The notes under the pieces: generated by a model | Seen by the model: only the letters and a program-made list of their open reading frames with translations | Told to the model about the DNA's origin: nothing | Databases searched by the model: none | DNA from: Mytilus edulis | Lineage: Eukaryota | Direction: 5' to 3' | Assembly: GCF_963676685.1 (NCBI RefSeq) | Contig: NC_092356.1 | Span: 49,662,001-49,726,000 of the forward strand | Length of the DNA: 64,000 nt | In this document: piece after piece, positions 15,318 through 63,439 of the stretch | How the letters are laid out: each line of letters opens with the position of its first letter | Position numbering within the stretch: position 1 is the stretch's first letter | Translations under genes and position numbers: made by a program

Positions 15318-16317
15318 AGGTTTAAAATTTGATACGCAAGACGCGCGTTTCGTCAACACAAGATTAACCCGAAAAGCTCTGATGAAAAAAGTTCCAAAGC
15401 AAAAACAAGTACAAAGTTGAAGAGCATTGAGGACCAAAAGTTCCTATTCGGCTAGGGTTTTCTGCCTGGGATAGAATTGAGGACCAAAAGTTCCTATACG
15501 GTTAGGGATTTCTGCCTGGGATGAGAACATCCTTTTTATTTAGAATATTTCATACTTTTGCAGACAGAATTTTTTTTATAAAATGACTATATAATTGATA
15601 TAAATGATAAAACCGGTGGCTGACTTTAAAATAAAAATGTATAGATGAATAACCTAAACCAGCATATAAAAATTCACAGCCACGTTAGCCAAATCGATAA
15701 ACTCACAAGTTTAAGTGACGTCACATTGAATTTCTAAACATTTCCCAACAATAGGATAGAATTAGGAATTAGGATTAGATTAGTTTTGTAAGGTTGATAT
15801 AGTTATCAAAGGTACCAGGATTATAATTTTGTACGCCAGACGCGCGTTTCGTCTACATCGTCTACATCGCATCAGTGACGTTCATATCAAAATATTTGTA
15901 AAGCCGAACAAGTAAAAAGTTGAAGAGCATTGAGGATCCAAAATTCCAAAAAGTTGTGCACAATACATCTAAGGTTATCTATGCCTGGGATAAGAAAATC
16001 CTTAGTTTTTCGAAAAATTCAAAGTTTTTTTAAAAATGACCACATTATTGATATTCATGTCAACACCGAAATGTTGACTAGTGGGTTAGTGGTACACTCG
16101 GGGACGAAACGTCCACCAGGAGTGGCATCGACCCAGTGGTGTAAATAGTTATCAAAGGTACCAGGATTATAATTTAGTACGCCAAGCGAGGGTTTCGTCT
16201 ACATAAGACTCATCAGTGACGCTCAATATTTATAAAGCAAAACAAGTACAAAGTTGAAGAGCATTGAGGATCCAAAATTCCAAAACGCTGTGCCAAATAC
16301 ATCTAAGGTAATCTATG
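15318..16317 (-). mobile_element. Cluster of retrozyme-like repeats: ~1.5 tandem units with 346-bp period (15801 and 16147) plus a diverged relative at ~15318-15630; hammerhead motifs degenerate
   Basis: agttatcaaaggtaccaggattataattt recurs at 15801 and 16147, each followed by a mutated reverse-complement hammerhead core. Confidence 0.8.
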
Positions 16318-16586
16318 TTATCGCTTTTTTGTTCGTTTTTCCTTTAATCTTTTTTTGTGATAATTTTTCATATCATGCCACTCGCTTGAGATGGAAAATT
16401 ATCGCTAGAAACTAAGAAAGCACAAGGCGTTGCTAACGAAATTGACATGAAATTGAAAACGTCGTCATAGGTAAAATAGCGATAAACAGATTATCATTGG
16501 TCATCTCAACTCGATTGCCTTTTTCGCTTTCGCCGTCCCGGCTCATGCGAGAAAATCAATCTCGTTGAGATGATCAACGATAATCT
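16318..16586. mobile_element. Non-autonomous fold-back element (short IR bracket plus ~100-bp hairpin)
   Basis: ttatcgct (16318) ... agcgataa (16478-16485); hairpin agattatcattggtcatctcaac ... gttgagatgatcaacgataatct (16488-16586). Confidence 0.7.
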
Positions 16587-21248: not shown

Positions 21249-23317
21249 GTTAGTTGGTTTTCAATTTAAACGAACGCTTGTACATGCTTTATACAATACT
21301 AATCATTGTATTATAAATGCAAAATTGTTAAAATGTATTGTAAAAAAAATTTCAATTTTTCGTATACCTTTGGATTGAGGCGTGGAAAAATAATTAATTT
21401 AATGGAAGTATTTATTTTCACCTTCTTCATTCTCTTAACAGGCCAGAGTTATTCCATTGGTTTTTCAATTGAATTGTCAAATATCTTTCATGTTTGGGCC
21501 ATAAAAACCGCCTAAATAGTATGGGGTTTTGTCATTGTTGAAGGCCGTATGGTTGCATATGATTTCTTTACAAATTCACTGCATTCGTACTTTCACTTAC
21601 AGTTGTCTCAATTATGCCACATCTTCGTATCTCTATACATGATATTTTATTCATAATCGTTTAAAAAATTATTTAAACGTTGCATCAATAATAGCCGGTA
21701 GATAAAATTAAGTATCTTGTAGTAAAATTTAAAGATAGTGTCATTTAAGGTTCAAAAAGTCTTATTGTAGCCTGAGGAGAGAATGCAGGAAGTAAAAAAA
21801 TAATGCTCTCATATATATTTTGAAGGGTTAAAAGCAATTCTTTAGTACATGCCAATAAAAGCTTAATTATAACCGCTAGAAACACTTATGTTCAGTATGT
21901 AACATTAAGGGGGATTTTTCGGGAGTGAACACCATATTAGATCTTCCGATTCTGGCTGGAAATTTTGAAGGTCCAAATATTAGGAAACGTTTTGATAGCA
22001 AAATAAAACTTACTGGACAAACAAAATGACAGGATCTTAAGGACATATAATTTATCCTTACCCTGAGGTCCAGGTAAATTAACCCCTAAAGTAAAAATAA
22101 GGTATGTTTGTTTTTCTCAATATTGTATGCCGTATAGACTTTACTCTGGTCGCCAGTTGTCTTATTGGCAATGCTACTAAATCTTCATATTTTTATCCTT
22201 TAATGTGTCTAACTTATCAGACAGCAAGAAGAGAAATGGTGCTGTTTCATTTTCCAGACTTGAACGAAAATAATGCACATCAAAATTATTTTTGTATTTT
22301 TTACAATGCCTAAACTCTAACAGATTCTAACATTTAATTATATCTAATGTACATTTTTGTTGTGAAAAAACACAGCCTTTATGAATGTCAACACCTGATT
22401 AAATTATGAAGGACCTAAGCAGGGTTCAGAAGTTTCTCATAAATGGGAACTGTCTCCGTCTTTCGTTATTATACCCAATATTGGGTATCAATTAACTATG
22501 TTTAGAGTTCATAATAATTAAGTTCATGACTCAAGCATTCTTAAAAATGGCAATAATTTAAACATTAAGACCAAAATTAAGTTGAGAATGGTATTTAATA
22601 ATAATTGCTTTTCAAAATGTTACTTTTTGAAGTCTATTAATTTTATCCAGGTGATATTTCATTTATAGTGTGTTTGGGTCAAGATGTTGGAATTTACATA
22701 AATCTAACTACCATGGCAGACAATACCTTGAAATTATGTTTTTATCACTGAGTATTGATATCGGTTTTGGGGCATAACCACTGTACATGTACATAGGAAT
22801 AACACACATTTATTCTTTCCAAACCTGTTAAACCAAATCCCTTTTTCAAATGAAATGATCTTTCTCTCATTAAATGTGAAAACGCGGAAATAAATTATGT
22901 GACACTACCTATATGAAATATTTATGGTTTCATATGAAAACTTAATACCCGCTGAAATACTTATAGTATTGAAAGTTTGAGATTCTAAGTCAATTCGATG
23001 GGCATGAATTACACAGCAACTACTGCTAAATTTCCACATGCACTACAACATTATGAATTCACGAGAAGAGTTACTTTAATTATATGTGCGATTTGATTGT
23101 CAATGTGATCATCATCCACCAGAAACAAATATACGTGGATTTAAGCAACTATAAGTTACTGTATAGCCTTCAACAACATAGGAAATAATTAGAGTACAAG
23201 CGATAGCTTCACTCTCAAATGTCTCATTTCACTCACTAATGAAGTTCGAGACATCTGTGATTACTTTTATTGTTAACTCTTTAATAGTTATCAAAGGTAC
23301 CAGGATTATAATTTAGT

Positions 23318-23361
23318 ACGCCAGACGCGCGTTTCGTCTACATAAGACTCATCAGTGACAC
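23318..23361 (-). ncRNA. Minimal type I hammerhead ribozyme inside retrozyme fragment 23283-23409
   Basis: Minus strand reads GUGUCA-CUGAUGA-GUCU(UAUGU)AGAC-GAAA-CGCGCG-UC^UGGCGU: full core, stems I and II, palindromic stem III. Confidence 0.88.
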
Positions 23362-23617
23362 TCAAATCAAAATATTTATAAAACCAAACAAGTACAAAGT
23401 TGAAGAGCAATATCTTTTAGTCTTATTATTTAATCTAAATGTATTTTATCTTTTCCTTATAAAATGCAACAAACATTATTGAATGGGCTGCCTTATAACA
23501 ACGTTGTGGTAATACACAGAAAAAAATTCAGAAGGTAAGGTTCATGGTTATTGCATGAAAATTAATCATAAGTCTTATGATATCGATTTATTCCTCTAAT
23601 GTTACCATTCTTTTAAG

Positions 23618-24784: not shown

Positions 24785-26558
24785 TAAAAATTGATAAGAA
24801 GTTGAAAAGTTGGAAAGAAGAAACTGACAATTTTTTTGTAAGTACTAAAGGATCTAAGGCAGTCATTGAATCGATTAAAGAAGAACCATGTGTAGCTGTT
24901 ACCGGAAGTTTTGGAATTGGCAAAACTGCAGTCATCCGTAACGTAGCTTTATTAATGCGTTCAAATGGTTATATTGTCGTTCCTGTGACAGATCCTTCGG
25001 AAATAAAAAAATACAAACATCCTTTAGAGAAAAATTTATTTGTAGTCGATAACTTTTGCGGTATATGTGATTTAGTGGAGGAAGAACTTGAAGCCTGGAA
25101 CAATTGCGGTGTTGAGTTTGATGAAAAATGTAAACTATTAGTATCGTGCAAACTTCAGGTTTACAGAGCAATACGACATGAATCACTGAATAACATTACT
25201 TTTCATGAATGTAATTTGATTTCAAATGATATATGTCTGTCTCTAGATGAAAGACAATCAATCGCTAGAAAATATGATATCAACATACTTGAAATTATTG
25301 ACTATATCGAATATTTTAACTGTTTTCCCCTTTTGTGTAATAATTTCACTATTGAAAAAATTGATAACGCACAAGATTTTTTTAAACACCCGTTTGAAGT
25401 GTTCGAAACACAGTTTGAAATGTTACAGGCTCTAGGTGCCAATGGTAAAGTTTGTGCATTAATGATCTTATTAATGTTTCCGAAGCTATGATAACGGGAG
25501 ATTTAAATTGGGACGTGAAATATATAATAGCAAATACAAGCAAAGCCTGTAAATTAGGTACGGAGGATTCATGTATCACAATACACAAAGAACTTGATAA
25601 CTTGATCGATACATATGTAGTGAAGAAAGACGGAGTTTATCATGCTCTAAATGAGAGGATATTCAATATAGTACTCCATTATTTTGGTCACGATATGACA
25701 GTACCACTAATAAGTTATGCTTGCCCAACCTTTATAAGAGAAAGGTTTCAGCTATCAAATCCGTTAACGAATAAGGAAGATTACAAGATTTTACGATGTG
25801 CGGATGGGATAGAAAATTCAAATGAGTTATTGTCGTGTAAAACATGGGACAAAATTGGTCTCAATGCAGTTGTTTTATGTAGTATCGAAGATCGTAAACC
25901 TTATGTTAATCGAATGCTTTCGGATTGGTCGAAAGGATTTGTGAATGATACTATTAGAAATCCAAATTTCTATCACTTTTTTTTCTTTCAATTCTTAATT
26001 GGTAAAGGTGAGATTGAAATCGGTCAGTTATTGAAAAAAAAAGACATAATTGATGGCTCGACACCTTTGATTGCAATCTGTGCGCTTATAGACTTTCATT
26101 TTGCAGACAAATGTTACGATATTTATTTGAAATGGTTAATTGACAATGGGTGTCCCATAAATGGAATCAATAAGAAAGGTCAGACGTCCATTTTTTACGC
26201 TGCAATACATGGTAAGAGTAAATTGGTAAATATTCTTATCAATCATAAAGCCGATACTAATATATGCACAACTGAAGGACATTCACCATTATTTATAGCC
26301 TGTCTGAACGGTTATTGTAAAATAGCAGATATTGTACTCATTTCCGGAGCTAACTGCAATGTGAGAACAACTGAAGGAAATACACCATTGCACGCTGCTT
26401 GTTTAAATGGACATATTTCTATTGTGAAAGAATTACTTAAACGCAATGCAGATTTAAGTATAAGAAATAACGTCTGTGTGACAGCACTCGATCTTGCTCG
26501 TCTTAATGGGCATCATGATATTGTGCAAGAGATAATTAAACACTCTTATACAAATTAA
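24785..26558 (+). CDS. HEPN-STAND-ANK terminal exon (nSTAND3-type NTPase, helical region, ankyrins), split by a frameshift
   Basis: tcttcttttatag|TA AAA ATT matches phase 1; ORFs 24766-25491 and 25452-26558 overlap in different frames. Confidence 0.88.
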
Positions 26559-39533: not shown

Positions 39534-42500
39534 TTACATGTCCTGCAGAAGATGACCAGTGAAGAGGGTTAACGGTGGGTTACGGCCAATTATTCCATTT
39601 GTTATCCTATCATCATTACTGGACACCCACATATTGTCGCCGACATTCATTTGATGTATAAGTGTTAAGCTCCCTCGACCAAAATAATTCGCATGATGAA
39701 TATCGGCTATGAGAGTAACCACACCTTTTCCATTGTAGATTAGGTTAACATGTGTATTAAACGACTGACTGGTAACTGTTAAGGAAAACAGATAATGTCC
39801 AGAAACAGGAGCTGTGAATATTCCACTTCTGGTATTGTAAACGTTGTTAGTGTTCGTCCATGTTTTGTCAAATATGATAGTTTGATCAACATGTGGATTA
39901 TTGATAGTTGTAGAAAGATAGGCCGAAAACATAACAGTGTTTCCTGAAATATTCAAAACATTTTTATCCACTTTTACAAAATATATTTCAGGTATTTACC
40001 AGATTAATGCAGTATGTCGTACACAGACATCAATTGATATTTTATAGTGTGTTTTTCTATGTTGTGATGTTACACTATTGTGTCGGTAAGGTTGAAGGTT
40101 GGTATCTATTATAAAGTTACTTTAAACCTGCCGGCATTTGTTTGTAACTGTTCTAAGTAAGGAAACTGAGGTTCAGCCGTTGTCGTTTGTTGATGTGGTT
40201 CATAAATGTTTCTCGTTTCTCATATTTTATATAGATTAGACCGTTGGTTTCCCGTTTGAATGGTTTTACACAAGTCATTTTTGAAGAACCTTTATAGCCT
40301 GCTGTTCGGTGTGAGACAACGTTCCGTGTTGAAGACCTTCTTTGACCTATTATGGTTTACTGTTGTGACTTGGATGGAAAGTTGTCTCATTGGCACTCAT
40401 ACCACATCTTCAAATATCTATGTACATGGTGCACGTAGCCACACTATGTAATATATCATGTATATGCAAAAGAAACTACAATTGCAACATATCGTTTTTT
40501 ACAACAATAGTTCCACGCCTGTTGTCATGCCTCGGTTACTTCAATCTCATAGTTTGTCATTGGCGTATCTTTATTTACGAAACTGTCTTTTTTTAGTTAA
40601 ATAATATTAGTCAAGTATTAAATATAATACTATGGACTTGTTACCAAATTTTAAATTCTTACAGTAGCTGTTGATTCAAAACTAGTAAAATTAGTCGGAG
40701 TAAACAACTTAGCTTTCAGAATGTTCAATGTCCTTTTAATTGAAACAGAGTTTGTCTGTTTCATAATTAAGATTATGTGAAAGTGTAGTGAAGAGAGAAG
40801 GCAATTTTAAACTATCAACAGAACTGAAAAGGCAAGTTAGAGCACGATATATATCTTAAACATCCAAAGAGTTTTTAAACACCAACATAATTAATTCAAC
40901 TATTATAGGTAAATGAATATAAAAAATAATTGTAACACACTTTCTAGAACCCAAAAATAAATTGTATGTGACCCTTTTGTACTTCAGGGTAGCAATACAT
41001 AGTAGTAACCGCAAAGTGATCAGAGCAGCGAATCTGTCCCTAAATAAAATTAAGAGTAAAAATGCTCGTAAGCCATATACATTTCGATGTAACTTACGAT
41101 CATTTTTAATTGTAGGAACTTTGTGAAAAGAGTCGCTGGTCTTTAGATTACATAGGTTACAAATACGTGTATGATTATCTTCTATTTGGCTTGCTTTATA
41201 TTGATTTTGAGTACGTTATTGTATAGAATTGTCTGGGATTTTTTCCCTAAATAGTCCTCTGATTTATTCTTAGCTAGTACACAGCAAAGTGAAGAAAGTT
41301 AAGTTATTACAAGAGAGACTACGTAGAAATACAGTCCCATTAAGCAGCACTGACCGATTTGAACTGGTATGATTCAAAATTTTCAAATTTGCGGAGAGTT
41401 CATTAATTACAACAGAGGCTGCAAATTTACACATTCGAAATAAATAGCACTATAAGATTTGAATTGTTTTTCTCATTTCAAACTTTGACGAAGATTAAGT
41501 AATTAACATCGTGGCTGCGTACTTGTATTTCCCAAATGAATAGCACCTTGCGATTTATACTGCATGGTACACTAAAATCTTTCAGTTATTGATTACAACC
41601 CTAAGGAAAAGCACTGCGCGAATAGAAGAACACCTTTCCATCGTTCTCATTAGGTGCCAACGTTTTAAATTTTCTTATCCAAAATATTTCCTGTGCTAGT
41701 CTACCCTCCCTAGACCAAGCTTAAACTGTGTTATGGTCTGTGATTGTAATGATAAGTCGATTGAGATCTGCCTTAGTGTGACCCAGGTATTTCAAATGCC
41801 GACTTAGAGGGAGGTCTGGTTTGCATTCATAGTCACTACGGTGGCTGTTCGTACGTTAGTGGAATGAGGCTCCGACAGGGTACCCCCTCAGGTCGCAAGG
41901 TCGCTTTTAAAATTCGACGAGAGGTCGTTTTTAAGGGAAATGTACAGGTCGCAGGTCGTTTTTCCCAACACAGAGAACGGAAGTCAGTCGGAGGTCGTTT
42001 TTTTCCAAATTTACAGGTCGCAGGTCGTTTTTGACCCTGCGGTAGCCTCTGGAATGACTGTTCTGGCTAACCAACATTCTCTTTTCCGCATTTACACTGT
42101 AGAAGATACACAGTATTATAGTCTTGCAATTGACGTTGCAAGATATGTTGTATTCCGTACCAGCACAGTGGTTGATAAGAGTCAGAGCATTAAGGATATG
42201 CTTGCAAATAATACATAGTTATACAATTATGAAAGATGTTTTCAAACAAATTCGCTCAACCTACTGCTTTATATATAGTGGTCGTCAAAAACTTGCAGTG
42301 AGGTGACAGTTTCTTTATGCCTCACTGTGACTTTGAAATGAAGAACAGCAATATGAAGGGATTGCTTTTTATATCTTTTATGTCTGAACTGTAGTCTAAG
42401 ACATGTAATTGTGAAATAAAAAGGTGAGAAAATAATAAGTGGGAAACAGTCATACAAATTCAAACCTGCAGAATGGTTTATCGTGGACATATTCCGTAAT

Positions 42501-46745: not shown

Positions 46746-49700
46746 ATGGCGTATAGAACTTTGACATCGTTTCTACTTGTCTGTGTTTCCTATTCATTAT
46801 GCCAAGGTGAGTGATCTTTCATATATATGTAGGTAAATATGTGTCATTTGTAAAAATAATACACATTTTCATATCACTTTACTAAATTCTAATGACTTGT
46901 TGTATTGAGAAAACTATTAAGTTTTTATCATAAGTCTATTCTATGATGTTATAGTTCAAATTATCTGTGCATTGAGGGTTATATTAAAAAAGAATAAGCC
47001 ATTGACTATGCTATAATTTTTTTTTGATTCTTTTCAAAACACTGTTTTTTCCCCTTATATACATATAGATGAATCATGTTATGAATTCAAAACGTTCGCG
47101 AGGGGAAAAACTCTGTCAATATCAAACAGGAGCATTTCTGTTTAAAACTTTAATAAATCGTTGAAGACCTAGATAATCTATGAACAATTTATATGTTAAT
47201 ACTCTTCTGGGGGTATTTTAGTTATTTGCGTCGTTTGGTTACCGGTTTATTCCCAAAACTATGTATAGGAAATGTTATATGTTTTGTCATGGGTAATACC
47301 TATATATGCATTTTAAGTAAAGTAAGTATACCAGCTGATTACTATACAACATAATGTTCGAGAACTGTAGTTAACATAACCATTAAATAATATTGAAATT
47401 GATGCCCCCCCCCCCCTTTCCACCTTTTCCGCCTTTTTAGTTTTTGAAAGCTATCATTTTGTATTAATCATAATATCAAGGTGTAAATAAAATTCACCCA
47501 ATACTGCTAACGCGCTTTGTTTGTGTATACATCTTTTCAGTGACATATTTTTAAAACAAAATTTAGTACTATAAACGTTGATTTGTAGTGTTAACTTGGA
47601 AAGGACATATATAACATTACTTCATAATGTCTTAACAAATACATTCTTGATCGAAATCTTGTAAGAAAGGTAATACATGTACATAAAATTATCACGTAGT
47701 AGTAGGTTGAATAATCTGTCAGTAAATGTGTTCTGAATAAAACCTGGCCAGATTATGTTTATTCCTGATTATCAATTTATAAACAATATATAATAAATGT
47801 TATTCAGATACTTTGTAGGGTGTGCGAAAAACGACACGGAAAGTAAATAAATAAATTCTATCGCATAGCTTGCCTCGTCAAAAAGCAATTAAGTGTTCAA
47901 CTGTAAAAAATGTTTGAGATTGTAGACATGCTTTATATTTATTGACCACGTGATTAGAATGGCGAAGAACAAATTTAAAAGCAAATAAACATGCATGATT
48001 AGATAATAGATCATTAATTTATCAAAATATGTTTATAATCATCAAAGCAAAGCTACCCAAGTACCCTTCAATAATGGATGGTCAATTCAATCAAAGATGG
48101 GATCATACTGTTACACAATAACTTTGAAACAATACCGCTGTCCAAACCAGTGTCCGAACTATTTACACCAAATTTTAGTTTTCCTTCAAACAGACAGGAA
48201 GGTTACCATTATTTGTTTTTGATTAATATTTTGTCAAGGGGGGATGGAATAGGTGTCTCAAATATTTGAACAATATGTATAAACGTCCAAAATAAGCCTT
48301 CTTAAAAAATTATCGGACGGTGTAATCAGTTTATATGTAATAGTAGCAAACTGTGCTAAACATCAAATGTTGTATGTGGCAGCAATTGGGACTTTCAAAG
48401 AAACTTATTCATATTTAAATTGAACTTCCTATATGTTTCTAGTTCATTCCCATACCAAAATTCTCAACAAAAAAAATAGAATGTAAAAAAAAATGTTTGA
48501 TAAGCAATCATATTAAATATTACTATAAAAAAAGTAGAATTAGCGTGTTTCAATCAGCAAATGTCTTTTGTTATGTATAGGACAAATAGATCCTCCCGAG
48601 ACAGACTGGGACAAACTAGCAACTGACAGTTTAAACAAGGCACTCAAACAAACATACAATACTAATTTGGCGAAAAACATTATCTTATTCATCGGAGATG
48701 GAATGGGCGTGTCCACCGTTACTGCAGCTAGAATATATAAAGGTCAGAAACAAGGCCATCCTGGGGAAGAGACGATTCTGAAATTTGAAGAATTTCCTCA
48801 TGTGGCATTGTCAAAGGTAAGAACGTGACCAACCTTGTATTGTTGGTCATGAAGATCAACATTCCTACCATTTATACGAAAGATGAAAATAGTTTTGTTA
48901 ATTCAATTAGTTTTAGAGAATTTTATCGTAGCGGTAAATAAACAAGTCACTATTCAGTATCAAATTATAACACAGCTTTGAGTTATTATATACAAAAATA
49001 AGATGTGGTATGATTGCCAATGAGACAACTCTCAACAAGAGACCAAATGACACAGAATTTAACAACTATAATAGATCACCATACACCTTCAACAATGAGC
49101 AAAGCTCATACCGCATAGTCAGCTAAAAACGCCCAACTTCTGGTAATTCTGCATAAAAAGTGGGGAACAATCATTATGTATGCTACACTTAAAGTTCCTA
49201 GCTTATTTTGTCAGTTATGGTGTATTATTACTACAATAAACATTTAGCTTCGTATAGGTATTGATATCAAACGGGAACATTTTTGACTGGTGTCACAATG
49301 TAAAGGAATTATCAATCTTTATATTCGTAAACATTCTTTTACAAATTAATTCACCATGACCTTAGATGAAAACATTCTCTCTTAAATTGCACTTTTATAC
49401 GCAATATCATTTCATGTGTAAACAACGTAATGAAAACATTTTTGTTGACCCAATTCTTTTCAATATATATTACCATTAAGATCACCTAACATTATATTCG
49501 GTTTAAGTTCAAATTGCCCATGCTTTTTATTTTTATTGTAGTAACTCCTTTACCTCGTGTGCGATTTATTTTTATTTTTAAAATATGCATTACTGATAGA
49601 AAAAAAAATGGGATGATTATCAAGATATTTATTGAAATCTTGAGTAAAAAATATTTTGATTATACATACGTTAAAATTTAAAACCACACACAATGTTTTT

Positions 49701-52700
49701 TTACTTTTTACATATCATTGATAGAATTGCAGCTATTTATCAATTATGGACTTTTACTAGGTCAAAACGTTATACACTAGCTGTTTTGTATAATTTAATT
49801 CAGAAGTCAATATATATACATATATATATAGTATCAAACAATGCATTTGTGTACTTTCAATATAAAAAAAAAGATGTGATATGTTTGCCAATGAGATAAC
49901 TCTCCACAAGAGACCAATATGACACAAAAATTAACAACTATAGGTCACCGTCAAACGAGAAAAATAACGGCCTTATTTATATAAAAAAAATAAACGAAAA
50001 ACAAATATGTAACACATAAACAAACGACAACCACTGAATAACAAGCTCCTGACTTGGGACAGGCACATACATACATAATGTGGCGGGGTTAAACATGTTC
50101 AAACTTTCAAATAAAGTTTTTTTTCTTTCTTGGAAAAATGCAGAAGTTTTTTTTTTGTTATATGGATCTTTTTCTCTTTTTAGTGTGTGTACTTTGTCCT
50201 GAATTCCTAAACATGTACTTTTACTGATATATCGTTTTTTAATATTGTTTTCTTCTTCATCAACAAACTTTAATTTTAATTTTATAAGACATACGGAAAT
50301 GATAGGCAGGTTCCAGACTCTGCACAAACAGCCACGGCGCTGATGAGTGGATATAAAACAAACTTCTACATAGTTGGCTTCAATGACAAGGTCACTGAGG
50401 GGAATTGTTCTGCTGAAACTGAAGAGAACAAACTTAAATCTATTCTTCATCACTTTAATGATGCCGGTAAGTTTTTGTTTGAGTCAGTAAATGTTATATC
50501 TCTAAACGGTAAACCGCTCTTCTGTTAATTCGGCTGCCTTACTATGAAACATTACCTACTTTTTATACATAATATATATTTAAATTCTCATGAACCAAAA
50601 TTCTCGGTACACAGATATAATAAACATTGAAAATATAACAAAAAGTTTGAATAATTACGAATGTGTGATCTACAGGGGTTAAAAAATATAAAAATGAGTC
50701 ATATATACGATATTATATAAATGAAATTTTATAGATATTGGAAGATGTGGTATGAGTGCCAATGAGACAATTCTCCACCCAAGTAACAATTTATAAAAGT
50801 AAACCATTAAAGGTCATGTTACAACCTTCAACACAAAGCGGAGCCTTGGCTCACACCGAACAGCAAGCTATAAAGGGCACCAAAAACTACTAGTGTAAAA
50901 CCATTCAAACGGGAAAACTAACGGTCTAATCTATATAAAAACGAGAAACGAGAAACACTTATGAATCACATAGACAGACGACAACTACTGAACATCAGAT
51001 TCCGGACAGTTACAAACAATTGCAGCAGTTTTAAACGTTTTAATGGTACCAAACCTTCTCCCTTTTCCGAAACAATAGTATCACAACATAGAAAGACACA
51101 CTTTAAAATATCAGTTAGAAGCCTTAATTCAATAAAAAAATGCTTATTTTCATTTTTGTTTTTAATTTATTGTCTTTTATATATTTTGTTGTGTTGTGTC
51201 ATTACACCACTATCCCTGTCATTTTAAAGCTGACTGTGCGGTATTGATTTTGAACATTGTTGAAGGCCGTCCGGTGACTTAAGTTTTAAACCTCTATGTC
51301 ATTTAGTATCTGGTGGAGAGGTGTCTCATTGGTAATCATACCTCTACCTCTACTTCTAATTCTAATAGTTTAAGGTACATGCTATCAAACAATCTTACCT
51401 CTTATAGACCAATAAATTTGCACAAATTGTTTGGCATACCAGTGTTAATGTTTCTAGAATTCCTTTAAGTTAGATTCTAAAATTTCGATATGTTACTTCG
51501 AGTTGATTCACTTGATGAAACATTTTATGACTAAAAACAGATGATGGTGACAAATTTCTCATAAAAAATGTACTCACCTCGTTACCACAAATTAAAAAAA
51601 AAGATAAAGAAATAACAGATTGAAGATACATTTAATCATCATTTTATCAAAATTTATACTTGTCTGAATTTTTGAAAATACTCAGTGGCAGAGAGACGCA
51701 AAATATTTGTCCTTTACACATAATTTACACCTAGTAACATAAATCTGTACATTTCTCAATGTTATCGATGCTTGTCTCAAGTGATGATTATCGACTTTGC
51801 CAAACCAAGACTTAAAGATTGATATTTGCTGCTTTTACGCTAGGCTCACTGTATTGTGATGTATGAGCAAAACCTGGTCGGCCCAGAATCACAGTAATAT
51901 GTCCGGGTAGGAAGACAATTCATCTAGCGGACTATTTATTACCTTGTGAACTAGCTCGTTAAAAATTCGGCTTTAAAGTGTCAATCTAGTGCAAAGCAAG
52001 TTTCATATTAACTACCAAACTAGTATTAGATAAAACAGGGCAAAATTGCATCTTTTTTATTTTACATTGAAATAATTGTAATGTTAAATATGAAAGTCCC
52101 ATCATTTTTCAATTCATTTCTTATAATCCAGACTTAGTTATATGCTTGTCATTGAATAACTATTGGTTGTATTGTGTTCTAGGTAGATCAACAGGTGTGG
52201 TAACGACTGCACGACTGACCCACGCTACCCCTGCCTCGTCCTATGCCAACAGTGCTAACAGAGACTGGGAATACGATGCTATACTCAGAGAAACAAATGT
52301 TGCAGGAGACTGTAAAGATATTGCTTACCAACTTGTTTATGACAATTCGTATATACAGGTACACTACCTTCATCATGGATTTCCTCTATTACATTATTTG
52401 GGAAATTTTTCTCGTCCTGATAATACATGAAATATTTGCCAATGATTGTTAAGCTAACAACATACAATAAATGTTATCATGGTTGAAATATGTAATTTCA
52501 TGAATATTCATAACATCATTTATTTTTATTTTAAAAGAATGCAAAACAAATTGATGTTATGAAGCAAAAGCGAGAAAAAAAAGTGTTAATATTTTTTCTT
52601 GTTCAGCACTATTTTTAAACAGTACGTTTGGTTGTGTGTATTTTTTGCGTGTTTATTTATTCATTTAGTAAAGATCTTGACACCAAATAGCTGCAGTTTG

Positions 52701-55700
52701 ATATATATTTTTTGAAAAGTGATATCTATCCCATTTATTTATCAAATTGCGATGCATCGTTTAAGGTTGCCATGGGCGGCGGAAGAACGAGGTTTTTACC
52801 TAATACCACTACTGATACAGAGGACGGCAGCAAGGGTAAAAGAACTGATGGCTTGAATCTGGTATCTGTAAGTAATGCTCTTTTTTCATAATTTTCCTTT
52901 CAAAAAGTATATTTTCTTCCTCAACTGAATGATTATTTTTGCCGAGTCACTATGAAAATATATTGATAGACTTAGACCAAATAACTTTAAATTTTTGAAA
53001 AAACTAAGGATTTTCTTATTCCAGGCATAGATTACCTTAGCCGTATTTTGCACAACTTTTTGGAATTTTGGATCCTCAATGCTCTTCAACTTTGTACTTG
53101 TTTGGCTTTATAAATATTTTGATATGAGCGTCACTGATGAGTCTAATGTAGACGAAACGCGCGTCTGGTGTACAAAATTATAATCCTGGTACCTTTGATA
53201 ACTTTTTACTTATACAATTGAGCAAGAAAGGCTTTTTGAATTTTCAGGAATGGCAAAAGAAACAAAATGAAAAGGGAAGGCGTAATCAATATGTAACTAA
53301 TAAACTGGAATTTGAAAGGATAGATCCAGCTACCACAGACTCTGTACTAGGTATGTATAAATTATTATGCATACTGAAACCTTTTTTTATTTTACATATA
53401 AGAAAAAATAGATGGGGTAAAATAACCATTCTAATGCAACAACGTTTGTAACGTTCATTTTGATTGGATAACGTCACTTTCAGTTTCTTACACGGCATCA
53501 ATTGACAATTGATGCTATGGGACGTACGCGCAAGCGCAGACGGCATATGACAGATTTTAAATACATGTTTTAACGTTGTTTTCTGTCAGTTTCATTAGAA
53601 TGGAGATAACAATATTGTATTTTAAGCTCCGACGGCATCAATTGGGGATTTGATGGTCGCAAATACCCGTTTACTGTCTCCGCTAACGCGTCGCCAGTAA
53701 ACTTAATGTGCGACCATCAAATGCCCAATTGATGCCGTCGGAGCTTAAAATACAATACAGTTATCTCCTAAATGAGACAACTCTCCACCAGAAATCAAAG
53801 TACAAGGATGTAAACAACAATAAAGCCATTCAACAATGAGCAAAATGTATACTGTATAGTAATCTGTAAAAGATCCCGTCATGTTAAAATGTGAAACAAC
53901 TCAAAAAGGAAAAATAATGGCCTGGTTTACACAAGAAAGGAGAAACGAAAATAGCTCAATCTTTTGTGATAGAAATGGGAAAAAAAAACAAATAAAAAAC
54001 ATATAATTGCAATTACCAAATATGAAAAAAGAAGTCTTTACAAATGAGATGAAATGAAATTTGAGAGACAAAAAATATAAAGATTACACAAGCATGCATT
54101 TGAATTTCCAAAAAATATTTATTATAGCCACGTGTTTGGTTTTTTTGTGTGTGTGGGGTTTTTTTTTTTGTTTGTTTGGGTTTTTTTTTGTTTTTTGGGG
54201 GGGGGGGGGGGGGGTATATATACGTTTATGTATGTGTGAAATAAAATGAATCATATTACTATTTATATAACAAGGCCTATTTGAATCATCACATATGCAG
54301 TATGAAGTGGATAGAAATAAAGCAAACGACGGAGAGCCTAGCTTAGAGGAAATGACTGAAAAAGCAATTAAAATCCTTAAAAAGAACACGAAAGGATTTT
54401 TCTTATTGGTTGAAGGTAAGACAGTTTCGTAATTAATGTATAGCATAGGATCAGATTCCCCTATAATTGTTATACGTCATCTAATGAGATGCAGATTTTA
54501 TAGATTTACTTATCTCTGAAAACCCGGATGTTGAGGACAAACACTCAGCATGATTGTATTACTTTAACTTATAACATGTACAGCAGTAATGCATATCAAT
54601 TTGTAAAATTGGAAAGTAAACATTTACATTGTGTTTAACTATATTAATATATAATAATAAATAAATTAACGAAAAATCTAATAAAATGTACAGTTAAATA
54701 GACTTTTTAGTGTTTTATGTTAAGCGTACTTATATTATCAATCTTAGCAAATTTTTGCTTATTCTAATTTTCTCCTATAGCATGTTTAGAGAACAGATTT
54801 TACTCTATTTTTTGTTGTTTTATTTACACCTGCTGGAAATGTAAACAATTATACAGTCCATACTATAATGAATAAGTTTCACAATAATCCTAATAAAAAG
54901 GATTCTCTGATCAATAATCACTGGCAGATTCAATTTTGAAGTAAATTATCTGACTCAATAGAATATACTTTTTGTATTCTATTTTTGTGTAGATTTTGGC
55001 ATGGAAAGACAAATTTAACTAAAAATGAATTAATTTTAATCTGAAACACAATATAAGAATTAATATTCCAAATATATGATTTTGGTCTTGGTTAAAAGTG
55101 TCTTTGAAATATATATATATATGTATTTGGTTGAATATTTCTGTAACTTAAAAACGAAGTGATTAAAATGTAAGGATGTTTATATTTCAAATTCGGAAAA
55201 CATTCATTTGAATCAGGTATAAACGAAAACGCAGTTAAAAAAGGTAGCAATTATTTTATTTAAAATTCGTATCATAGGAACGAACTGTGTAAATGTTTTG
55301 ATATATTTTACTTGTATTTTAGTGATTGCAGTATGAAGCTACAATACTTGCATTGTTGAAGAACTATCCTGCAATAATATATTCTACAAAGTAAATTAAA
55401 TTGACATTTTTTTGTAAGTAAGAAGGGTTTAAGGTCTCGGAAGAGAGACCCACGTGCTCCAATTCTGGAATTGTGTCAAATTTGATTTCTCCCAGTTTGA
55501 GATTTTCTGCTGTTTTTTTGTGTTGGTGTTGGATTTTTTTCTCCAAAAAATGTTAAAAGGAAAAACCTGGAAAATTTAAAGATGATTATACGTATATATT
55601 TTAGGTGGTCGTATTGACCATGGTCATCATGACAATACTGCAAAGAGAGCATTAGAAGAAGTATTAACATTCGAGAACGCAGTGAGGAAAGCCATTAAAC

Positions 55701-58700
55701 TGACCAATCAGGAAGAGACATTAATAATAGTAACTGCTGACCATTCACACGTATTCAGTATAGGTGGATATCCGTACAGAGGAAATGATATTTTAGGTAA
55801 TGTTCCTGGAAAAGTCTTCGGACGATTTCCCCTGTGATTGTTTCGCTCAAAAGAACAAAGCCTGACGCATTATTGTAATCTACTGGATTGAAATATTGAA
55901 GTGACTTTTATAAATACAGTAAAATTGCATGTATACCCAAAATAACAAAATGTGTTTCGAAGCTGAATATAATTGTTCTAAACAGTTTCAAATTTTACAA
56001 GCTCTGAATGACGGCTTTCAATGCTACGGACTTTTTATGACCCGCAATGAAGTTGTGGATGCCATATACTTTTACCCTTGTCCGTCATTCCGTCATTCTG
56101 TCATTCCGTCATTCCACAACAAACCATTATACGGAGTTTCTTTTCTAAACGCCTTCAGATATTGGGCTGATATTTGGTATGTGAGTTAACCATGAAGTGT
56201 TACAGATCAAGTTTAAATTTTGTTCCGCTCCCCTAATTTTTGTCGAAATTACGCGCTTTGGACTTTGATAAATTGTTGAAAATCACAGTTAAACGGACTT
56301 TTTTTAAAACGCTTTCAGATATTGGGCTGATTTTTGGTATGTGAGTTAACCATAATGAGTTACAGATCAAGTTTAAATTTCGTTCCGCTCCCCTAATTTT
56401 TGTCGAAATTACGCGCTTTGGACTTTGATAAATTGTTGAAAATCACAGTTAAACAGACTTTTTTTTAAACGCTTTCAGATATTGGGCTGATTTTTGGTAT
56501 GTGAGTTAACCATAATGAGTTACAGATCAAGTTTAAGTTTCGTTCTGCTCTGCTAATTTTTGCCGAAATTACGCGCTTTGGACTTTTATAAATTGTTGAA
56601 AATCACAGTTATACAGACTTTTTTCTAAACGCTTTCAGATATTTGGCTGATTTTTGGTATGTGAGTTTACCATGATGAGTTACAGATCAAGTTTAAGTTT
56701 AATTCCGCTCCGCTGATTTTTGCCAAAACTAAGGGTTGACGGCTTTGAAAATTGTTGAAAATCACAGTTATACACTCAGACTTTTTTCTATACACCTTCA
56801 GATTTTGAGCTGCATGATTTTTTATATGTGAGACTACCATCATGTTTGTGTCCACATGTGTTATTGAAATTGCAGATTTTGAAACTTTTTGAGACGTGGC
56901 CATTCGTGTCGTTTTGACACCTCTAGTTTTATTTATATTTGAAATTCTAAAAAAAATCATATATAGTTTGTCAATATTCAACTTAATTTCAAAACTAATT
57001 AATGTTCGGAAGTAACTACATTGTATATTATTACAAGTTTATAAATATATCCAAGTTTTATATTGATACACTAAAGTTAAAGTTTAAGAAACATGAAATG
57101 GACATTTGATTTTAATCAATTATTTTGTACTAAACTAAAAGTAAATACATGAAATTTGTGTTGTTTGAACTCAAAGAACATAACATATGAAGTGACACTG
57201 TATTTAACAAAAAATTATCATTTTTAAAATTGTTTTCAAAAGACTGTAATTTTATGCATTACAGGTCTTGCCAATCCATTATTGTATGAGCCCTCGTTAG
57301 ATAAGTTACCGTATACAACAATATCTTATGGAAATGGACCGGGTATGAATTATACTATTGTAGGCAGAGAGAATATCACAGGAGTTGATACAAGTAAGTA
57401 TGATATGATTGTGTGAATGTCGTTTATGTTTGTTTTCTTTTTACGTCCCATTTATGGGCATTATGTTTTCTGGTCTGTGCGTCCGTCCGTCACTCCGTCT
57501 GTCCCGCTTCAGGTTAAAGTTTTTGGTCGAGGTATTTTTTTGATGAATTTGAAGTCCAATCAATTTGAAACTTAGTACACATGTTTCCTATGAGTATTAT
57601 GATCTTTTTAATTTTAACGCCATATTAAAATTTTACCCCATTTCTCGGTCCACTGAACATACTAGAAAATGATAGTGCGGATGGGGCATCCGTGTACTTG
57701 GGACACATTCTTGTTGTTAATAATTTTAATTATGTAATGACATTTAACCGGTGTTCAAGTGTTTCAAAGTTTCTTTGGTTCTCCCAATCATGTTTTTACT
57801 TCTGATGAGAACACACAAAAAACACCCAAAAAGCTTCAGATCAAACCAAAATATTTGTTTAATAAAAATGCACTGGGAGAATACATGTTCCGTCCATCTA
57901 TGAGACAATATGGTATTAACATATTGAAACAATCGAACAAGACACTAAAAAAAGTAAGATAAATTACCAATAGCAATCAAATCATCAGTATTAACAAAGC
58001 AGATAATAACATTACAAAAAAAAACACATTTAAGACAAACCTCAGTCGACAAAATATTTAGCAGAAAATGAAAGAATCTGCAACACGAATCCTATCAAGA
58101 ACCGTAGTTGAGAGCCGGTGCTTTAAAAGAGTCAGTATCTCCTGATCCACTTGTGATAACTTGTGGCGCACACCTGTATAACCTCTGCATAACAAAAATA
58201 CCTAACTCCAAGGAAAATTAAAAACGCAAAGTCATTTGTCAAATAGCAAAATCAAAAGCTCGATCAAATCAAACCGAATGGAAAACAACTGTCATATTTC
58301 TGACTTGGTACAGGTATTTACTTATGTAGAAAAATGGTATATTTGATATGCGGATTTTATTCTTTTGTTTGCACTTCAGCCAATTGTTTTCTAGAATTTC
58401 ATGCAGTTTGAGTATCAAAAAAAGAAAACAAAATGTCACGATGCCTTTCAGTTACTCAATTTATTTCTCTTCTGAAAGTAATTCTTAGGTTGAAAAGGTT
58501 TTCTGGAATGCTTTTCGAGTACATTGATATTAATTTTCAGATGAATAAAATAATTAGCCTGGGATTGAATGATGATAATTCGTAGTAGATAACCATTAAA
58601 ATGTTGGTTTTTTTGGTCGAGGTATTTTTTTGATGAATTTGAAGTCCAATCAATTTGAAACTTAGTACACATGTTTCCTATGAGTATTATGATCTTTTTA

Positions 58701-60012
58701 ATTTTAACGCCAAATTAAAATTTTACCCCATTTCTCGGTCCACTGAACATTCTAGAAAATGATAGTGCGGATGGGGCATCCGTGTACTTGGGACACATTC
58801 TTGTTGTTTATAATTTTAATTATGTAATGACATTTAACCGGTGTTCAAGTGTTTCAAAGTTTCTTTGGTTCTCCCAATCATGGTTTTACTTCTGATGAGA
58901 ACACACAAAAAACACCCAAAAAGCTTCAGATCAAACCAAAATATTTGTTTAATAAAAATGCACTGGGAGAATACATGTTCCGTCCATCTATGAGACAATA
59001 TGGTATTAACATATTGAAACAATCGAACAAGACACTAAAAAAAGTAAGATAAATTACCAATAGCAATCAAATCATCAGTATTAACAAAGCAGATAATAAC
59101 ATTACAAAAAAAAACACATTTAAGACAAACCTCAGTCGACAAAATATTTAGCAGAAAATGAAAGAATCTGCAACACGAATCCTATCAAGAACTGTAGTTG
59201 AGAGCCGGTGCTTTAAAAGAGTCAGTATCTCCTGATCCACTTGTGATAACTTGTGGCGCACACCTGTATAACCTCTGCATAACAAAAATACCTAACTCCA
59301 AGGAAAATTAAAAACGCAAAGTCATTTGTCAAATAGCAAAATCAAAAGCTCGATCAAATCAAACCGAATGGAAAACAACTGTCATATTTCTGACTTGGTA
59401 CAGGTATTTACTTATGTAGAAAAATGGTATATTTGATATGCGGATTTTATTCTTTTGTTTGCACTTCAGCCAATTGTTTTCTAGAATTTCATGCAGTTTG
59501 AGTATCAAAAAAAGAAAACAAAATGTCACGATGCCTTTCAGTTACTCAATTTATTTCTCTTCTGAAAGTAATTCTTAGGTTGAAAAGGTTTTCTGGAATG
59601 CTTTTCGAGTACATTGATATTAATTTTCAGATGAATAAAATAATTAGCCTGGGATTGAATGATGATAATTCGTAGTAGATAACCATTAAAATGTTGGTTT
59701 TTTTTGTTTACAGCTTCTGATAATTATGTGCAACAGAGTGCTGTTCCCGTCGCATCCGAGTCACATGGCGGAGAGGATGTACCTATATTTGCCATGGGAC
59801 CGATGTCACACCTCATTCATGGTGTTCAAGAACAACATTATGTTGGTCACGTGATGCAATTTGCTGCATGCGTGGGGAAGTATTCTAATAATTGCGACCG
59901 CAAAGTAACAAATCCACATTCGGCTTCTAGTGCAAATGAGATACAATTTTCCTTTTTAAGAATGATAATATATGGAATTTTAGGAGTAATACATTCAATG
60001 TGTCTATTTTAA
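46746..60012 (+). CDS. ALP: Alkaline phosphatase (tissue-nonspecific-like), 538 aa, signal peptide and probable GPI signal; exons 46746-46806, 48581-48816, 50289-50466, 52183-52358, 52766-52867, 53248-53350, 54275-54415, 55605-55796, 57265-57393, 59714-60012
   Basis: Ten GT-AG exons in consistent phase total 1617 bp. Motifs [17 protein letters not shown] (catalytic Ser), [37 protein letters not shown]; hydrophobic C-terminus after SASSA. Confidence 0.96.
53128..53171 (+). ncRNA. Minimal type I hammerhead ribozyme inside retrozyme fragment ~52985-53203, sense strand of ALP intron 5
   Basis: GCGUCA-CUGAUGA-GUCU(AAUGU)AGAC-GAAA-CGCGCG-UC^UGGUGU; predicted cleavage after C53165. Confidence 0.88.
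53426..53768. mobile_element. Non-autonomous fold-back element (15-bp IR bracket plus ~167-bp hairpin) in ALP intron 6
   Basis: ccattctaatgcaac (53426) / gtttcattagaatgg (53589); hairpin ggagataac..ttaagctccgacggcatcaattggg ... cccaattgatgccgtcggagcttaa..gttatctcc. Confidence 0.85.
56031..56929 (+). mobile_element. Helentron/HINE (pearl-like) non-autonomous element with ~4.3 x 160-bp internal tandem repeat
   Basis: T-rich start, (TCATTCCG)n microsatellite, 160-bp units at 56151/56311/56471/56631, 3' hairpin gtgtc-gtttt-gacac, then ctagtttt. Confidence 0.8.
57436..57713 (+). mobile_element. Short HINE-like element
   Basis: ttttacgtcccatttatgggc, (GTCC)n, and 3' ggggcatccgtgtacttgggacacattcttgtt. 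Confidence 0.65.
57520..59699 (+). repeat. Near-perfect 1090-bp tandem duplication in the last ALP intron
   Basis: ttttggtcgaggtatttttt at 57521 and 58611; duplicate ORFs 57759 and 58849; about 5 differences seen. Confidence 0.97.
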
Positions 60013-61661: not shown

Positions 61662-63439
61662 TTAATTGGCAACAATAAGATGTCCTGTGAAAATAGATAC
61701 TGGCAAACCATCAACCGATCCAATAATGACTTGGTTAATCTGTCCATCAGGGTCAACATTCCATACTTCATCTCCAATATCCAGGTGTAGTGCTAAGGTT
61801 AAGGTGGCTCTGCCATACTGGCCATCATGAAAATGATCGGCGTAGAGAAGACCAATTATATTCCCATTGTGACGAATGTTGGCGTGTGTATTGACAACAT
61901 TCCCGCCAATTGTCAGTGTAAACTGGTACACCCCTGCCACTGGTGCTCGGAATATGCCTGTTTTAGTACTGTATCCATTTCCTACATTGACGGACGTTTT
62001 ATCAAAAATGATCACTTGACCATTTGGTACGTTAACCAAGTTGTGTGATAGCAATGCAGAAAACACTACTGCTTTTCCTGAAACGATAGATAGTGGTTTG
62101 GTTATTTGCAACACTACAGCTGTTAAAATATTCACCTGTTTTATCAAATAAAAGACTTATCATGGGAAGCTTCTCTGATTAACCTACACGATGTGTGTGA
62201 TTTAGACCTAATTAAGTCTAATATAAGTTATATGTTATGTATTTGTTTCCCAATTTTCAGTATATTTGTTGCTTTTATTTACAATGATGTAAAATGTCCA
62301 TCAATGACAATACGACATACGCTAGCTTTTAACTTGTAGCTTATTCTGTATGCTTGATTGATTAGTGTTTAACGCCAATCAGTACTACTGCATAATTTGA
62401 GGAGGTCCGTTTTTAATTGATAGTGTGCCAGAACTTCGGCAAGAAAGTTTAAAAAAAATCCAGTCAATTAAATCGAGCCCATCTGCTACGTTCGGATTTA
62501 GTGCTGTAACACCACTGCAATATGTTTCAAAGGGTGGAGTGTGCACAATAAGTGTTGTGAGCCAGTCCGAGCTCAGTACCCTGTAATTCAGTGGTTGTTG
62601 CAGTTATTGTTTTATACTGTTTTTCGTTTATCGTTTTTTAATGAATCAGGTTTTTGTAAGTTTTTCGTTTTTGTTTGCATTTTTTGTTTGAATAGTTTCA
62701 AATTATGTCATGTTGGAGCCTTTTGTTGCTGACTGTATGGTATGGGTTTTTCATATTGTTGATTGACGTACACCTTTCACCTAGTCATTAGGACTCTTGT
62801 GGATAGTTAGTTGTATCATCAACAATCCGGCACATTTCAATGTTTTATGTATTATAACTTCTTTGGTGTACTTTTTTATGTTATTTAACATCTTTTTTGA
62901 ACCACACATTTCGTATGAAAATGAAGAGAAACCGTTTTCCTCTACATACTATGATTTTAATTTTAGTTCATTTATATGTTTTGGAGTAAAGTTTGGTGTC
63001 CATTTTAACTGAACTAGTACACTTTTTTTGTTTAGAGGTCAGCTAAAGCCCGTCTCCGGTTACAGGATTTTCTTGCTGTGTTTAAGATCCAAATAGTGGT
63101 TTACGGCTGTGTGATGCTCTTTGGTAGGGTTGTTGTCTCTTTGACACGTTCCCCATTTCCATTCTCAATTCTATTTTATCTCAAAATTGTTTTGCTCTCT
63201 CTTCAATTTTTGTGTTTAAAGGTTATAAATCAAATATTGAATTAAAATACTTCTAATTAATCATAACCTTCCTTACCTACATTGGATCCCGTATTAGATA
63301 AATTAAACTGCATGACATTGTTGTTTGCCTTCAATTCCGATATCTCCTTGTTCTTTTGTAGAAGGTCTTTCTGTATAGTATAAACACTGTTTTGTAGAGA
63401 TGTAATTTGTTTTTCTAGTTCCATTCTTAAATTCGATTC
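61662..63439 (-). CDS. C1q-domain-containing gene C, 5'-partial; exons 63439-63277 (coiled-coil) and 62077-61662 (gC1q); signal-peptide exon not found in the window
   Basis: gatag|GAA TCG AAT TTA AGA ATG GAA CTA GAA AAA (ESNLRMELEKQITSLQNSVY) ... GTA G|gtaagg; tttcag|GA AAA GCA GTA; gC1q motifs YSTKTGIFRAPVAGVYQF, GDEVW, FTGHLI. Confidence 0.9.

What the first reader, a model, noticed from the sequence alone, without database searches (positions are those of the whole stretch)
53128..53171. Intact hammerhead ribozyme on the sense strand of an alkaline phosphatase intron
Seen: complete CUGAUGA/GAAA/GUC core with stems I and II, ~80 nt upstream of the exon 6 acceptor. Stem III is the palindrome ACGCGCGU with only a 2-nt loop. 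Known: such minimal type I hammerheads cleave mainly as dimers and mark non-LTR retrozymes, a class reported from mussels. Inference: the monomer is probably weak, but abundant retrozyme RNA could complete the dimer in trans and cut ALP pre-mRNA.
Basis: partly seen in the sequence, partly recalled or inferred. Interest (0 to 1): 0.72.

Follow-up and report, generated by a model that had tools for sequence, protein, structure and literature searches.

The report
Stray retrozyme ribozyme in mussel intron
The hammerhead ribozyme motif in this alkaline phosphatase intron is real, but it is a shortened copy of a repeat with over 8,000 copies, very likely the known mussel retrozyme; other animals lack it at this spot and a point change is predicted to weaken it, so it is likely a passenger, not a regulator.

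Summary
The type I hammerhead is really there (Rfam RF00163, E 7e-6, just under the family cut-off), sense to intron 5 of a ten-exon alkaline phosphatase gene, with its cut site 82 nt before exon 6. It lies in a 221-227 nt, 5'-truncated piece of a 355-364 nt tandem repeat whose 32-nt core occurs 8,285 times in the genome, very likely the published mussel non-LTR retrozyme. The insertion is polymorphic: contigs of three other runs (two studies) join across the site without it. It is not fully intact: a C>T change found in 221 of 6,540 copies weakens stem I, and in a modelled trans dimer the half that would cut the intron does not form. The published mussel ribozyme cleaves from a one-copy clone, so 'dimer only' is not established. 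Family copies stop at one point about 38-43 nt past the cut site (25 of 28 loci) and have scattered 5' ends, which fits Penelope-type copying from a circular or multimeric RNA. This scan has noted the family and that fixed end before on other DNA. Verdict: an ordinary passenger copy; trans-cutting of the pre-mRNA is unlikely.

The parts
53128..53171 (+). Type I hammerhead ribozyme motif: stem I 53128-33/53166-71, core CUGAUGA 53134-40, stem II 53141-44/53150-53, GAAA 53154-57, palindromic stem III 53157-64, predicted cut after C53165
   Evidence: Rfam RF00163 31.4 bits, E 7.2e-6; pairs listed
52983..53203 (+). 5'-truncated retrozyme copy (monomer positions about 173-355 then 1-38; BLAST extends to 53209); lacks the GC-rich stem-loop of the monomer; one hammerhead only
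   Evidence: 94-98% identical to most tandem units of 355-364 nt in loci L002-L020; 5 differences from an L018 unit over 227 nt; ends mapped
53169..53169 (+). C>T change (CpG-type) that turns a G-C pair of stem I into G-U
   Evidence: T in 221, C in 6,319 exact 26-nt matches in the genome; stem I duplex -1.1 against -5.9 kcal/mol
52981..52988 (+). 8-nt direct repeat, left copy (possible microhomology or short duplication; may be chance)
   Evidence: 76 of 506 control pairs reach 8 nt or more; not confirmed by the empty allele, whose alignment stops at 52984
53198..53205 (+). 8-nt direct repeat, right copy, overlapping the family's fixed 3' end
   Evidence: reads and contigs leave the element at 53203 into unrelated flanks
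52868..53247 (+). Intron 5 of the alkaline phosphatase gene (380 nt with the insertion, about 165 nt without); branch-point-like words at 53205-53213 lie downstream of the cut site
   Evidence: size without insertion (15 letters in place of 230)
52766..52867 (+). Alkaline phosphatase exon 5
   Evidence: PF00245 E 8.5e-7; exon 4-5 joint in 5 RNA reads of X24
53248..53350 (+). Alkaline phosphatase exon 6
   Evidence: Keeps the frame; exon 6-7 joint in 5 RNA reads of X24; no Pfam hit alone
46746..60012 (+). Alkaline phosphatase gene, 10 coding exons: 46746-46806, 48581-48816, 50289-50466, 52183-52358, 52766-52867, 53248-53350, 54275-54415, 55605-55796, 57265-57393, 59714-60012
   Evidence: Open frame of 538 aa plus stop; Pfam; exon 5 region single-copy in the assembly
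23283..23409 (-). Second fragment of the same family in the window (127 nt, one hammerhead)
15806..16324 (-). Third copy of the same family in the window (519 nt; its upstream hammerhead has a damaged stem III)

Best explanation
This is a shortened, polymorphic copy of a hammerhead-bearing repeat with over 8,000 genomic copies, very likely the mussel non-LTR retrozyme, that landed in intron 5 of an alkaline phosphatase gene and is likely a near-neutral passenger. Steps. Shown: tandem arrays of 355-364 nt units exist and family RNA is abundant; this copy runs across the cut site and stops at the family's shared 3' end; other animals lack it here; its stem I carries a minority change. From the literature: multimeric retrozyme RNA self-cleaves and is ligated into circles. 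Inferred: a Penelope-type reverse transcriptase began copying about 38-43 nt past the cut junction on a circular (or uncut multimeric) RNA, primed on an AT-rich target, ran back through the ribozyme and stopped after about 220 nt. A linear monomer cut at both ends could not give this copy. Predicted: in the pre-mRNA the weakened ribozyme seldom folds before splicing, and a cut intron would often still splice.
For: 8,285 exact cores, control 0. Tandem periods of 355-365 nt and two related sub-families fit the published 350-390 bp and two ribozyme families (PMC7229834). Empty allele: X18 contig 25 joins 52984 to 53215 with 15 letters between, where the window has 230; X16 contig 16 gives the same 15 by its coordinates and X15 contig 1 fits it. 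3' ends at monomer positions 36-48 in 25 of 28 distinct loci, 5' ends spread from 11 to 305; no target duplication above controls in 22 of 23 loci; 276-416 reads per RNA run leave the element at 53203 into mixed flanks. Minority T in 221 of 6,540 copies. Cost of the stems I+II fold 6.7-12.2 kcal/mol here against 4.2-6.5 for a family copy. Introns cut by a hammerhead still spliced in human cells (PMC2995048 passages).
Against: No cleavage assay and no RNA from an animal known to carry the insertion. The catalytic core and cut triplet are unchanged. ViennaRNA cannot model the 2-nt loop, the core or Mg2+, and also ranks the family's own active fold as rare although the family cleaves in vitro, so only the difference between copies means something. 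At the family's in vitro 0.1 per min, 39-63% would be cut in a 5-10 min splicing window (hand arithmetic, human splicing times). Identity with the published family could not be checked by sequence (supplement unreadable). No autonomous partner was identified: one Naiad family shares the geometry but not the sequence. Evidence for a filled allele outside this assembly is one contig that enters the element by under 31 letters (X17).
Confidence: 0.82

Rival explanations
1. Same origin, but the monomer still cuts in cis often enough to lower alkaline phosphatase mRNA from this allele: a slightly harmful or functional expression variant.
For: Core, stem II and cut triplet intact; sense strand; a one-copy mussel clone cleaves at about 0.1 per min; the intronic CPEB3 ribozyme modulates its mRNA (PMC10919898 passages); frog retrozymes are somewhat depleted from introns (bioRxiv 10.64898/2026.07.22.740005).
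Against: Stem I weakened by about 4.8 kcal/mol as a duplex; stem I pair probabilities 0.00 in all six window spans folded; mussel motifs lack most loop 1-2 contacts; the exon 6 acceptor is made only 82 nt later and branch-point-like words stay on the 3' piece; slow hammerheads did not block splicing.
Confidence: 0.12
2. One reading: abundant retrozyme RNA pairs with the intron through the palindrome, completes a double hammerhead in trans and cuts the pre-mRNA, so retrozyme levels regulate the gene.
For: The 8-nt palindrome allows an intermolecular stem III; for two family 44-mers the double hammerhead is the co-fold optimum (-29.5 kcal/mol); family RNA is abundant, 76-84% of depth on one strand in X21-X23, likely the ribozyme strand. 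Trans cleavage by schistosome repeats is recalled from Ferbeyre 1998 (not read).
Against: With this copy as partner the binding estimate falls from -7.8 to -4.3 kcal/mol for 44-mers and is +4.4 for 81-mers; the optimum keeps only the half in which the intron would cut the partner, not the half that cuts the intron. The same target exists in thousands of copies, so no specificity for this gene. The insertion is absent in three other runs. Circles are reported to be stable and probably blocked.
Confidence: 0.04
3. The element spreads as DNA (satellite or rolling-circle type repeat) and the hammerhead merely rides along.
For: Tandem arrays and lack of target duplications are also traits of rolling-circle elements (recalled).
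Against: The fixed end sits a set distance from the ribozyme cut in both sub-families; the same layout of fixed 3' end and tandem copies is seen for a reverse-transcriptase-bearing Naiad-like element here; abundant RNA and published circles.
Confidence: 0.05

Closest known systems
Mytilus galloprovincialis non-LTR retrozyme (Cervera and de la Pena 2020, PMC7229834; parts 2-4 of 6 of the text read, supplement not readable)
   Same: Type I hammerhead in AT-rich tandem repeats of about 350-390 bp, thousands of copies, two similar ribozyme families, no LTR or coding frame, abundant RNA.
   Different: This copy is a 62% fragment with a single ribozyme, so it cannot release a circle; it has a weakened stem I; 8,285 exact cores here against about 5,000 reported; a fixed 3' end is not described in the parts read; sequence identity not checked.
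[quoted passage not shown]
   Same: Type I topology, palindromic positions around helix III, possible dimer, dispersed truncated copies.
   Different: Those lack helix III and have longer helix II and shorter helix I; this one has 6-bp I, 4-5-bp II and a short III, and lies in a non-coding repeat; no Penelope frame is attached in the loci examined as part of the unit.
Vertebrate non-LTR retrozymes as non-autonomous Penelope derivatives (bioRxiv 10.64898/2026.07.22.740005; abstract, results part 1 of 2 and discussion read)
   Same: Proposed Penelope mobilisation; many monomeric and intronic copies (about 43% of frog copies overlap introns).
   Different: There the retrozymes resemble pLTRs in sequence; here no sequence likeness to the one Naiad-like family tested.
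Domesticated intronic ribozymes (CPEB3 HDV-like, PMC10919898 passages; conserved amniote intronic hammerheads, seen only as mentions in PMC7761336)
   Same: Self-cleaving motif on the sense strand of an intron of a protein gene.
   Different: Those are conserved single motifs; this is one of thousands of copies, polymorphic, 82 nt rather than about 10 kb from the next exon.

Membership tests
Type I hammerhead ribozyme (Rfam RF00163) | Core CUGANGA, GAAA and NUH cut triplet with three helices, open at helix I | tested here: met
   whole model matched
Type I hammerhead ribozyme (Rfam RF00163) | Score at or above the Rfam gathering threshold (34 bits) | tested here: not met
   31.4 bits, E 7.2e-6; 0 hits at gathering level. 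Lowers curated membership, not the likeness
Type I hammerhead ribozyme (Rfam RF00163) | Self-cleavage at the predicted site | not testable with these tools
   No pile-up of read ends at 53165/53166 in 4 of 4 RNA runs, but these are fragmented libraries and reads come from the whole family
Animal non-LTR retrozyme | Type I hammerhead inside short (150-450 bp) tandem repeats, GC under 50% | tested here: met
   Family units of 355-365 nt in arrays of up to at least 9 within 3 kb loci
Animal non-LTR retrozyme | No coding frame, LTR or short fixed target duplication | tested here: met
   No frame of 180 aa or more within the repeat; flank repeats no longer than controls in 22 of 23 loci
Animal non-LTR retrozyme | Expressed at high level | tested here: met
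   Depth about 800-3,800 over the motif in 4 of 4 RNA runs of organism B, with reads running on into the next unit; family level, not this copy
Animal non-LTR retrozyme | RNA is circular | tested here: inconclusive
   Reads cross the cut site without ends, which circles and uncut multimers both give
Animal non-LTR retrozyme | This copy has two ribozymes in tandem and can release a unit-length RNA | tested here: not met
   One ribozyme, 221-227 of 355 nt: a dead-end fragment of a member family
Published M. galloprovincialis retrozyme family | Sequence identity with the cloned circles | not testable with these tools
   Supplement could not be read; the deposited clones are in no collection here
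Minimal PLE hammerhead (min-HHR) | No helix III or loop 3; long helix II; within pLTR of an RT-coding element | tested here: not met
   Short helix III present, helix II 4-5 bp; definition from PMC4209133
Domesticated intronic ribozyme | Fixed and conserved at the orthologous site | tested here: not met
   Absent in contigs of X18, X16 and likely X15

The most novel reading that the evidence does not exclude
Retrozyme insertions are ribozyme landmines in host introns: family-type sense copies do cut mussel pre-mRNAs (alone, or completed by the abundant circles), and selection lets mainly crippled ones persist, such as this copy with its 1-in-30 stem I change. This present/absent allele pair in a single-copy gene would then be a natural test of whether a parasitic RNA circle tunes host gene expression.
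Probability: 0.12. Interest if true: 0.65.

Novelty: new member of a known kind. Interest (0 to 1): 0.2.

Why it matters
As it stands it matters little: thousands of such copies exist and about 0.08 exact-core copies are expected in any gene of this length, so many genes will carry one. Two points have some value. The insertion is polymorphic in a short intron of a single-copy gene, so allele-specific expression in heterozygotes can ask directly whether a retrozyme hammerhead harms a host pre-mRNA, which is open. And the family's fixed 3' end just past the cut site is a genomic record of where reverse transcription likely starts on the circle; the authors' review says no motif points to the mobilising element (PMC7761336), and I did not see this end described in the sections read after searches. 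The scan has already noted it elsewhere.

Tried and rejected
Rfam at gathering level: 0 hits; the other six weak Rfam matches near the site are far below their cut-offs and taken as chance. Tandem Repeats Finder found no array at the site. No RNA holder was listed as on record for the stretch; no weight given. Molecule ends at 53165/53166: none in 4 runs; uninformative, since libraries are fragmented, reads come from all copies and the carrier status of those animals is unknown. The exon 5-6 joint was not among the rows shown (12 rows hidden; exon depth 2-6 in X24 only, 0 in X21-X23), so splicing over the insertion could not be judged. Target-site duplication: the 8-nt repeat at both ends is matched or exceeded by 76 of 506 control pairs and the empty allele's 15 letters were not shown, so it is not claimed. 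A paralogue or second haplotype with an empty site inside the assembly: none, 1 match only. Pfam did not name the Naiad-like frames; the label rests on tandem layout, an N-terminal GIY-YIG-like word and an in-frame TGA read against PMC8557442 passages. PMC8490949 and PMC3365414 passages gave nothing usable. Ferbeyre 1998 is not held. Earlier findings by sequence and by place: none. A sense versus antisense count in introns was not possible without gene annotation.

Full report
Observation. The motif is as described. Stem I is 53128-53133 with 53166-53171, the core CUGAUGA 53134-53140, stem II 53141-53144 with 53150-53153, GAAA 53154-53157, the palindrome 53157-53164 and the cut falls after C53165. 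Rfam Hammerhead_1 matches the full model at 31.4 bits, E 7.2e-6, under the gathering score of 34; at gathering level the window has no hit. The host gene has ten coding exons with GT-AG introns and an open frame of 538 aa; 7 of 8 exons scanned hit PF00245, exon 6 alone did not. RNA run X24 shows the exon 4-5 and 6-7 joints in 5 reads each. The motif is sense to intron 5, 82 nt before exon 6.

What it is part of. A search of the genome with 53060-53240 gave 2,340 candidates, 40 scored, at 97-100% identity. These lie in tandem arrays with periods mostly of 355-365 nt, and the window shares 52983-53209 with them. The exact 32-nt core occurs 4,257 + 4,028 = 8,285 times, control 0. A second sub-family with nearly the same ribozyme has 1,626 exact matches to a 28-nt tail word. 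Two more fragments lie in this window on the minus strand. Size, copy number and two similar families fit the mussel non-LTR retrozyme of PMC7229834 (parts 2-4 of 6 read); its supplement could not be read, so identity is by traits, not by sequence. That the host is a mussel is inferred from this fit. Family RNA is abundant in 4 of 4 raw-read runs of organism B, depth about 800-3,800 at the motif, 76-84% of it on one strand in X21-X23; these reads come from the whole family.

The copy is a fragment and is polymorphic. It covers monomer positions about 173-355 and then 1-38 (to 44 by BLAST), one ribozyme only, so it cannot release a circle. In contigs of four other runs, X18 record 25 covers 52650-52984 and 53215-53420 with 15 letters between, where the window has 230. 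X16 record 16 gives the same 15 by arithmetic (a piece 52899-52984 at the same depth, then 53215-53356 from record position 102). X15 record 1 leaves the window at 52984 with the same nearby variants and fits the same form. These are three runs of two studies and two organism labels. X17 record 17 instead runs on to 53012, into the element, by fewer than the 31 letters needed to count as a bridge. The library kind of these four runs is not on record; they cover the intron evenly. The 15 letters were not displayed.

How copies end. Among the first 30 exact-core matches on contig C1 plus the three window copies, 5 duplicates were dropped. Of 28 distinct loci, 25 have their 3' end at monomer positions 36-48 (others 23, 152, 342), while 5' ends spread from 11 to 305; 19 have one ribozyme, 8 two, 1 three. 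In the 23 loci with a recognisable end word, agreement with the monomer is 96-100% to position 38 and falls to chance by 44; repeats between flanks are no longer than in 506 control pairs except one locus that sits in a tandem repeat. RNA reads (276-416 per run) and contigs (110-400 per run) also leave the element at 53203 into mixed sequence. In the second sub-family 18 of 25 loci leave the element within about 12 nt after the tail word (read). Inference: reverse transcription starts at a fixed point about 38-43 nt past the cut junction, primed on a partly matching AT-rich target, and runs back through the ribozyme for a variable length. Such copies need a circular or uncut multimeric template. 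Penelope-like elements are the proposed helpers (PMC7229834; bioRxiv 10.64898/2026.07.22.740005) and often show a 30-40 bp tail (PMC8557442 passages). A Naiad-like family in this genome also forms tandems (period 4,031) and 7 of 11 loci stop within a few bases of one point, with no hammerhead core in the three arrays scanned, but an unbiased alignment found no sequence likeness at the junction. The helper is not identified here.

Would it cut the pre-mRNA? The copy differs from an L018 unit at 5 of 227 positions; one, C>T at 53169, makes a third G-U pair in stem I. T occurs in 221 and C in 6,319 exact 26-nt matches, and in 3 of 58 copies in the sampled loci. The stem I duplex drops from -5.9 to -1.1 kcal/mol. 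Forcing stems I and II with an open core costs 6.7, 10.8 and 11.9 kcal/mol for three spans against 4.2, 5.5 and 6.5 for the family copy, and 10.7-12.2 in intron context. These models omit the core, the tight loop and Mg2+, and they also disfavour the family's fold, so only the difference is informative. For the trans dimer, two family 44-mers have the double hammerhead as their optimum (-7.8 kcal/mol net); with this copy the net is -4.3, and +4.4 with 81-nt flanks, and the optimum keeps only the half in which the intron would cut its partner. The premise that the mussel motif needs a dimer is also weak: a one-copy clone cleaved at about 0.1 per min, and the review says most invertebrate motifs cleave as monomers while amphibian ones need dimers. 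Against my reading: at that rate 39-63% of a family-type copy could be cut in 5-10 min (hand arithmetic with human splicing times), so cis cutting by intact copies is a real open question. Yet introns cut by a hammerhead were spliced about as well as intact ones, whereas a fast HDV ribozyme blocked splicing (PMC2995048 passages), and branch-point-like words remain on the 3' piece. No read ends pile up at the cut site, which is uninformative.

Verdict. Observation confirmed; interpretation partly supported. It works like, and very likely is, a dead-end fragment of the mussel non-LTR retrozyme. It fails the tests for a minimal Penelope hammerhead and for a domesticated intronic ribozyme. The scan holds 27 earlier findings with these words, several on the same family with the same fixed end; these are unchecked notes and were not counted as support. 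Interest 0.2.

Noticed in passing
window 2352-3800, minus strand: 3' part of a Naiad-like Penelope retroelement (239-aa frame ending in the RT tail); the genome holds many 92%-identical copies, some in tandems of period 4,031 with two frames split by one TGA, possibly selenocysteine as reported for clam Naiads.
   Followed up: partly
L090:1560-1700: The Naiad-like fixed 3' end and the retrozyme fixed 3' end both fall in an AT-rich word directly before a predicted GC-rich stem-loop; the Naiad junction also looks like a splice acceptor. No significant sequence likeness.
   Followed up: partly
window 53427-53770: A repeat in intron 6 with 63-nt inverted arms (53602-53664, 53706-53768, 94%), covered by RNA reads in all four runs; MITE-like.
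   Followed up: no
window 57520-59700: Near-perfect tandem duplication with period 1,090 nt in intron 9, ending just before the exon 10 acceptor; recent duplication or assembly artefact.
   Followed up: no
window 56081-56812: 160-nt tandem repeat (4.2 copies) preceded by an 8-nt microsatellite in intron 8; layout recalls rolling-circle-derived repeats of bivalves (recalled).
   Followed up: no
window 24739-26558, plus strand: nSTAND3 NTPase frame followed in another frame by an ankyrin-repeat frame, overlapping at 25449-25491: a frameshifted or split immune-type gene.
   Followed up: no
window 39534-39995 and 61662-62156, minus strand: Two C1q-domain exons flank the alkaline phosphatase gene.
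   Followed up: no
L052-L076: Second retrozyme sub-family (1,626 exact tail words) with the same stems, a different loop 2 and its own fixed 3' end.
   Followed up: partly
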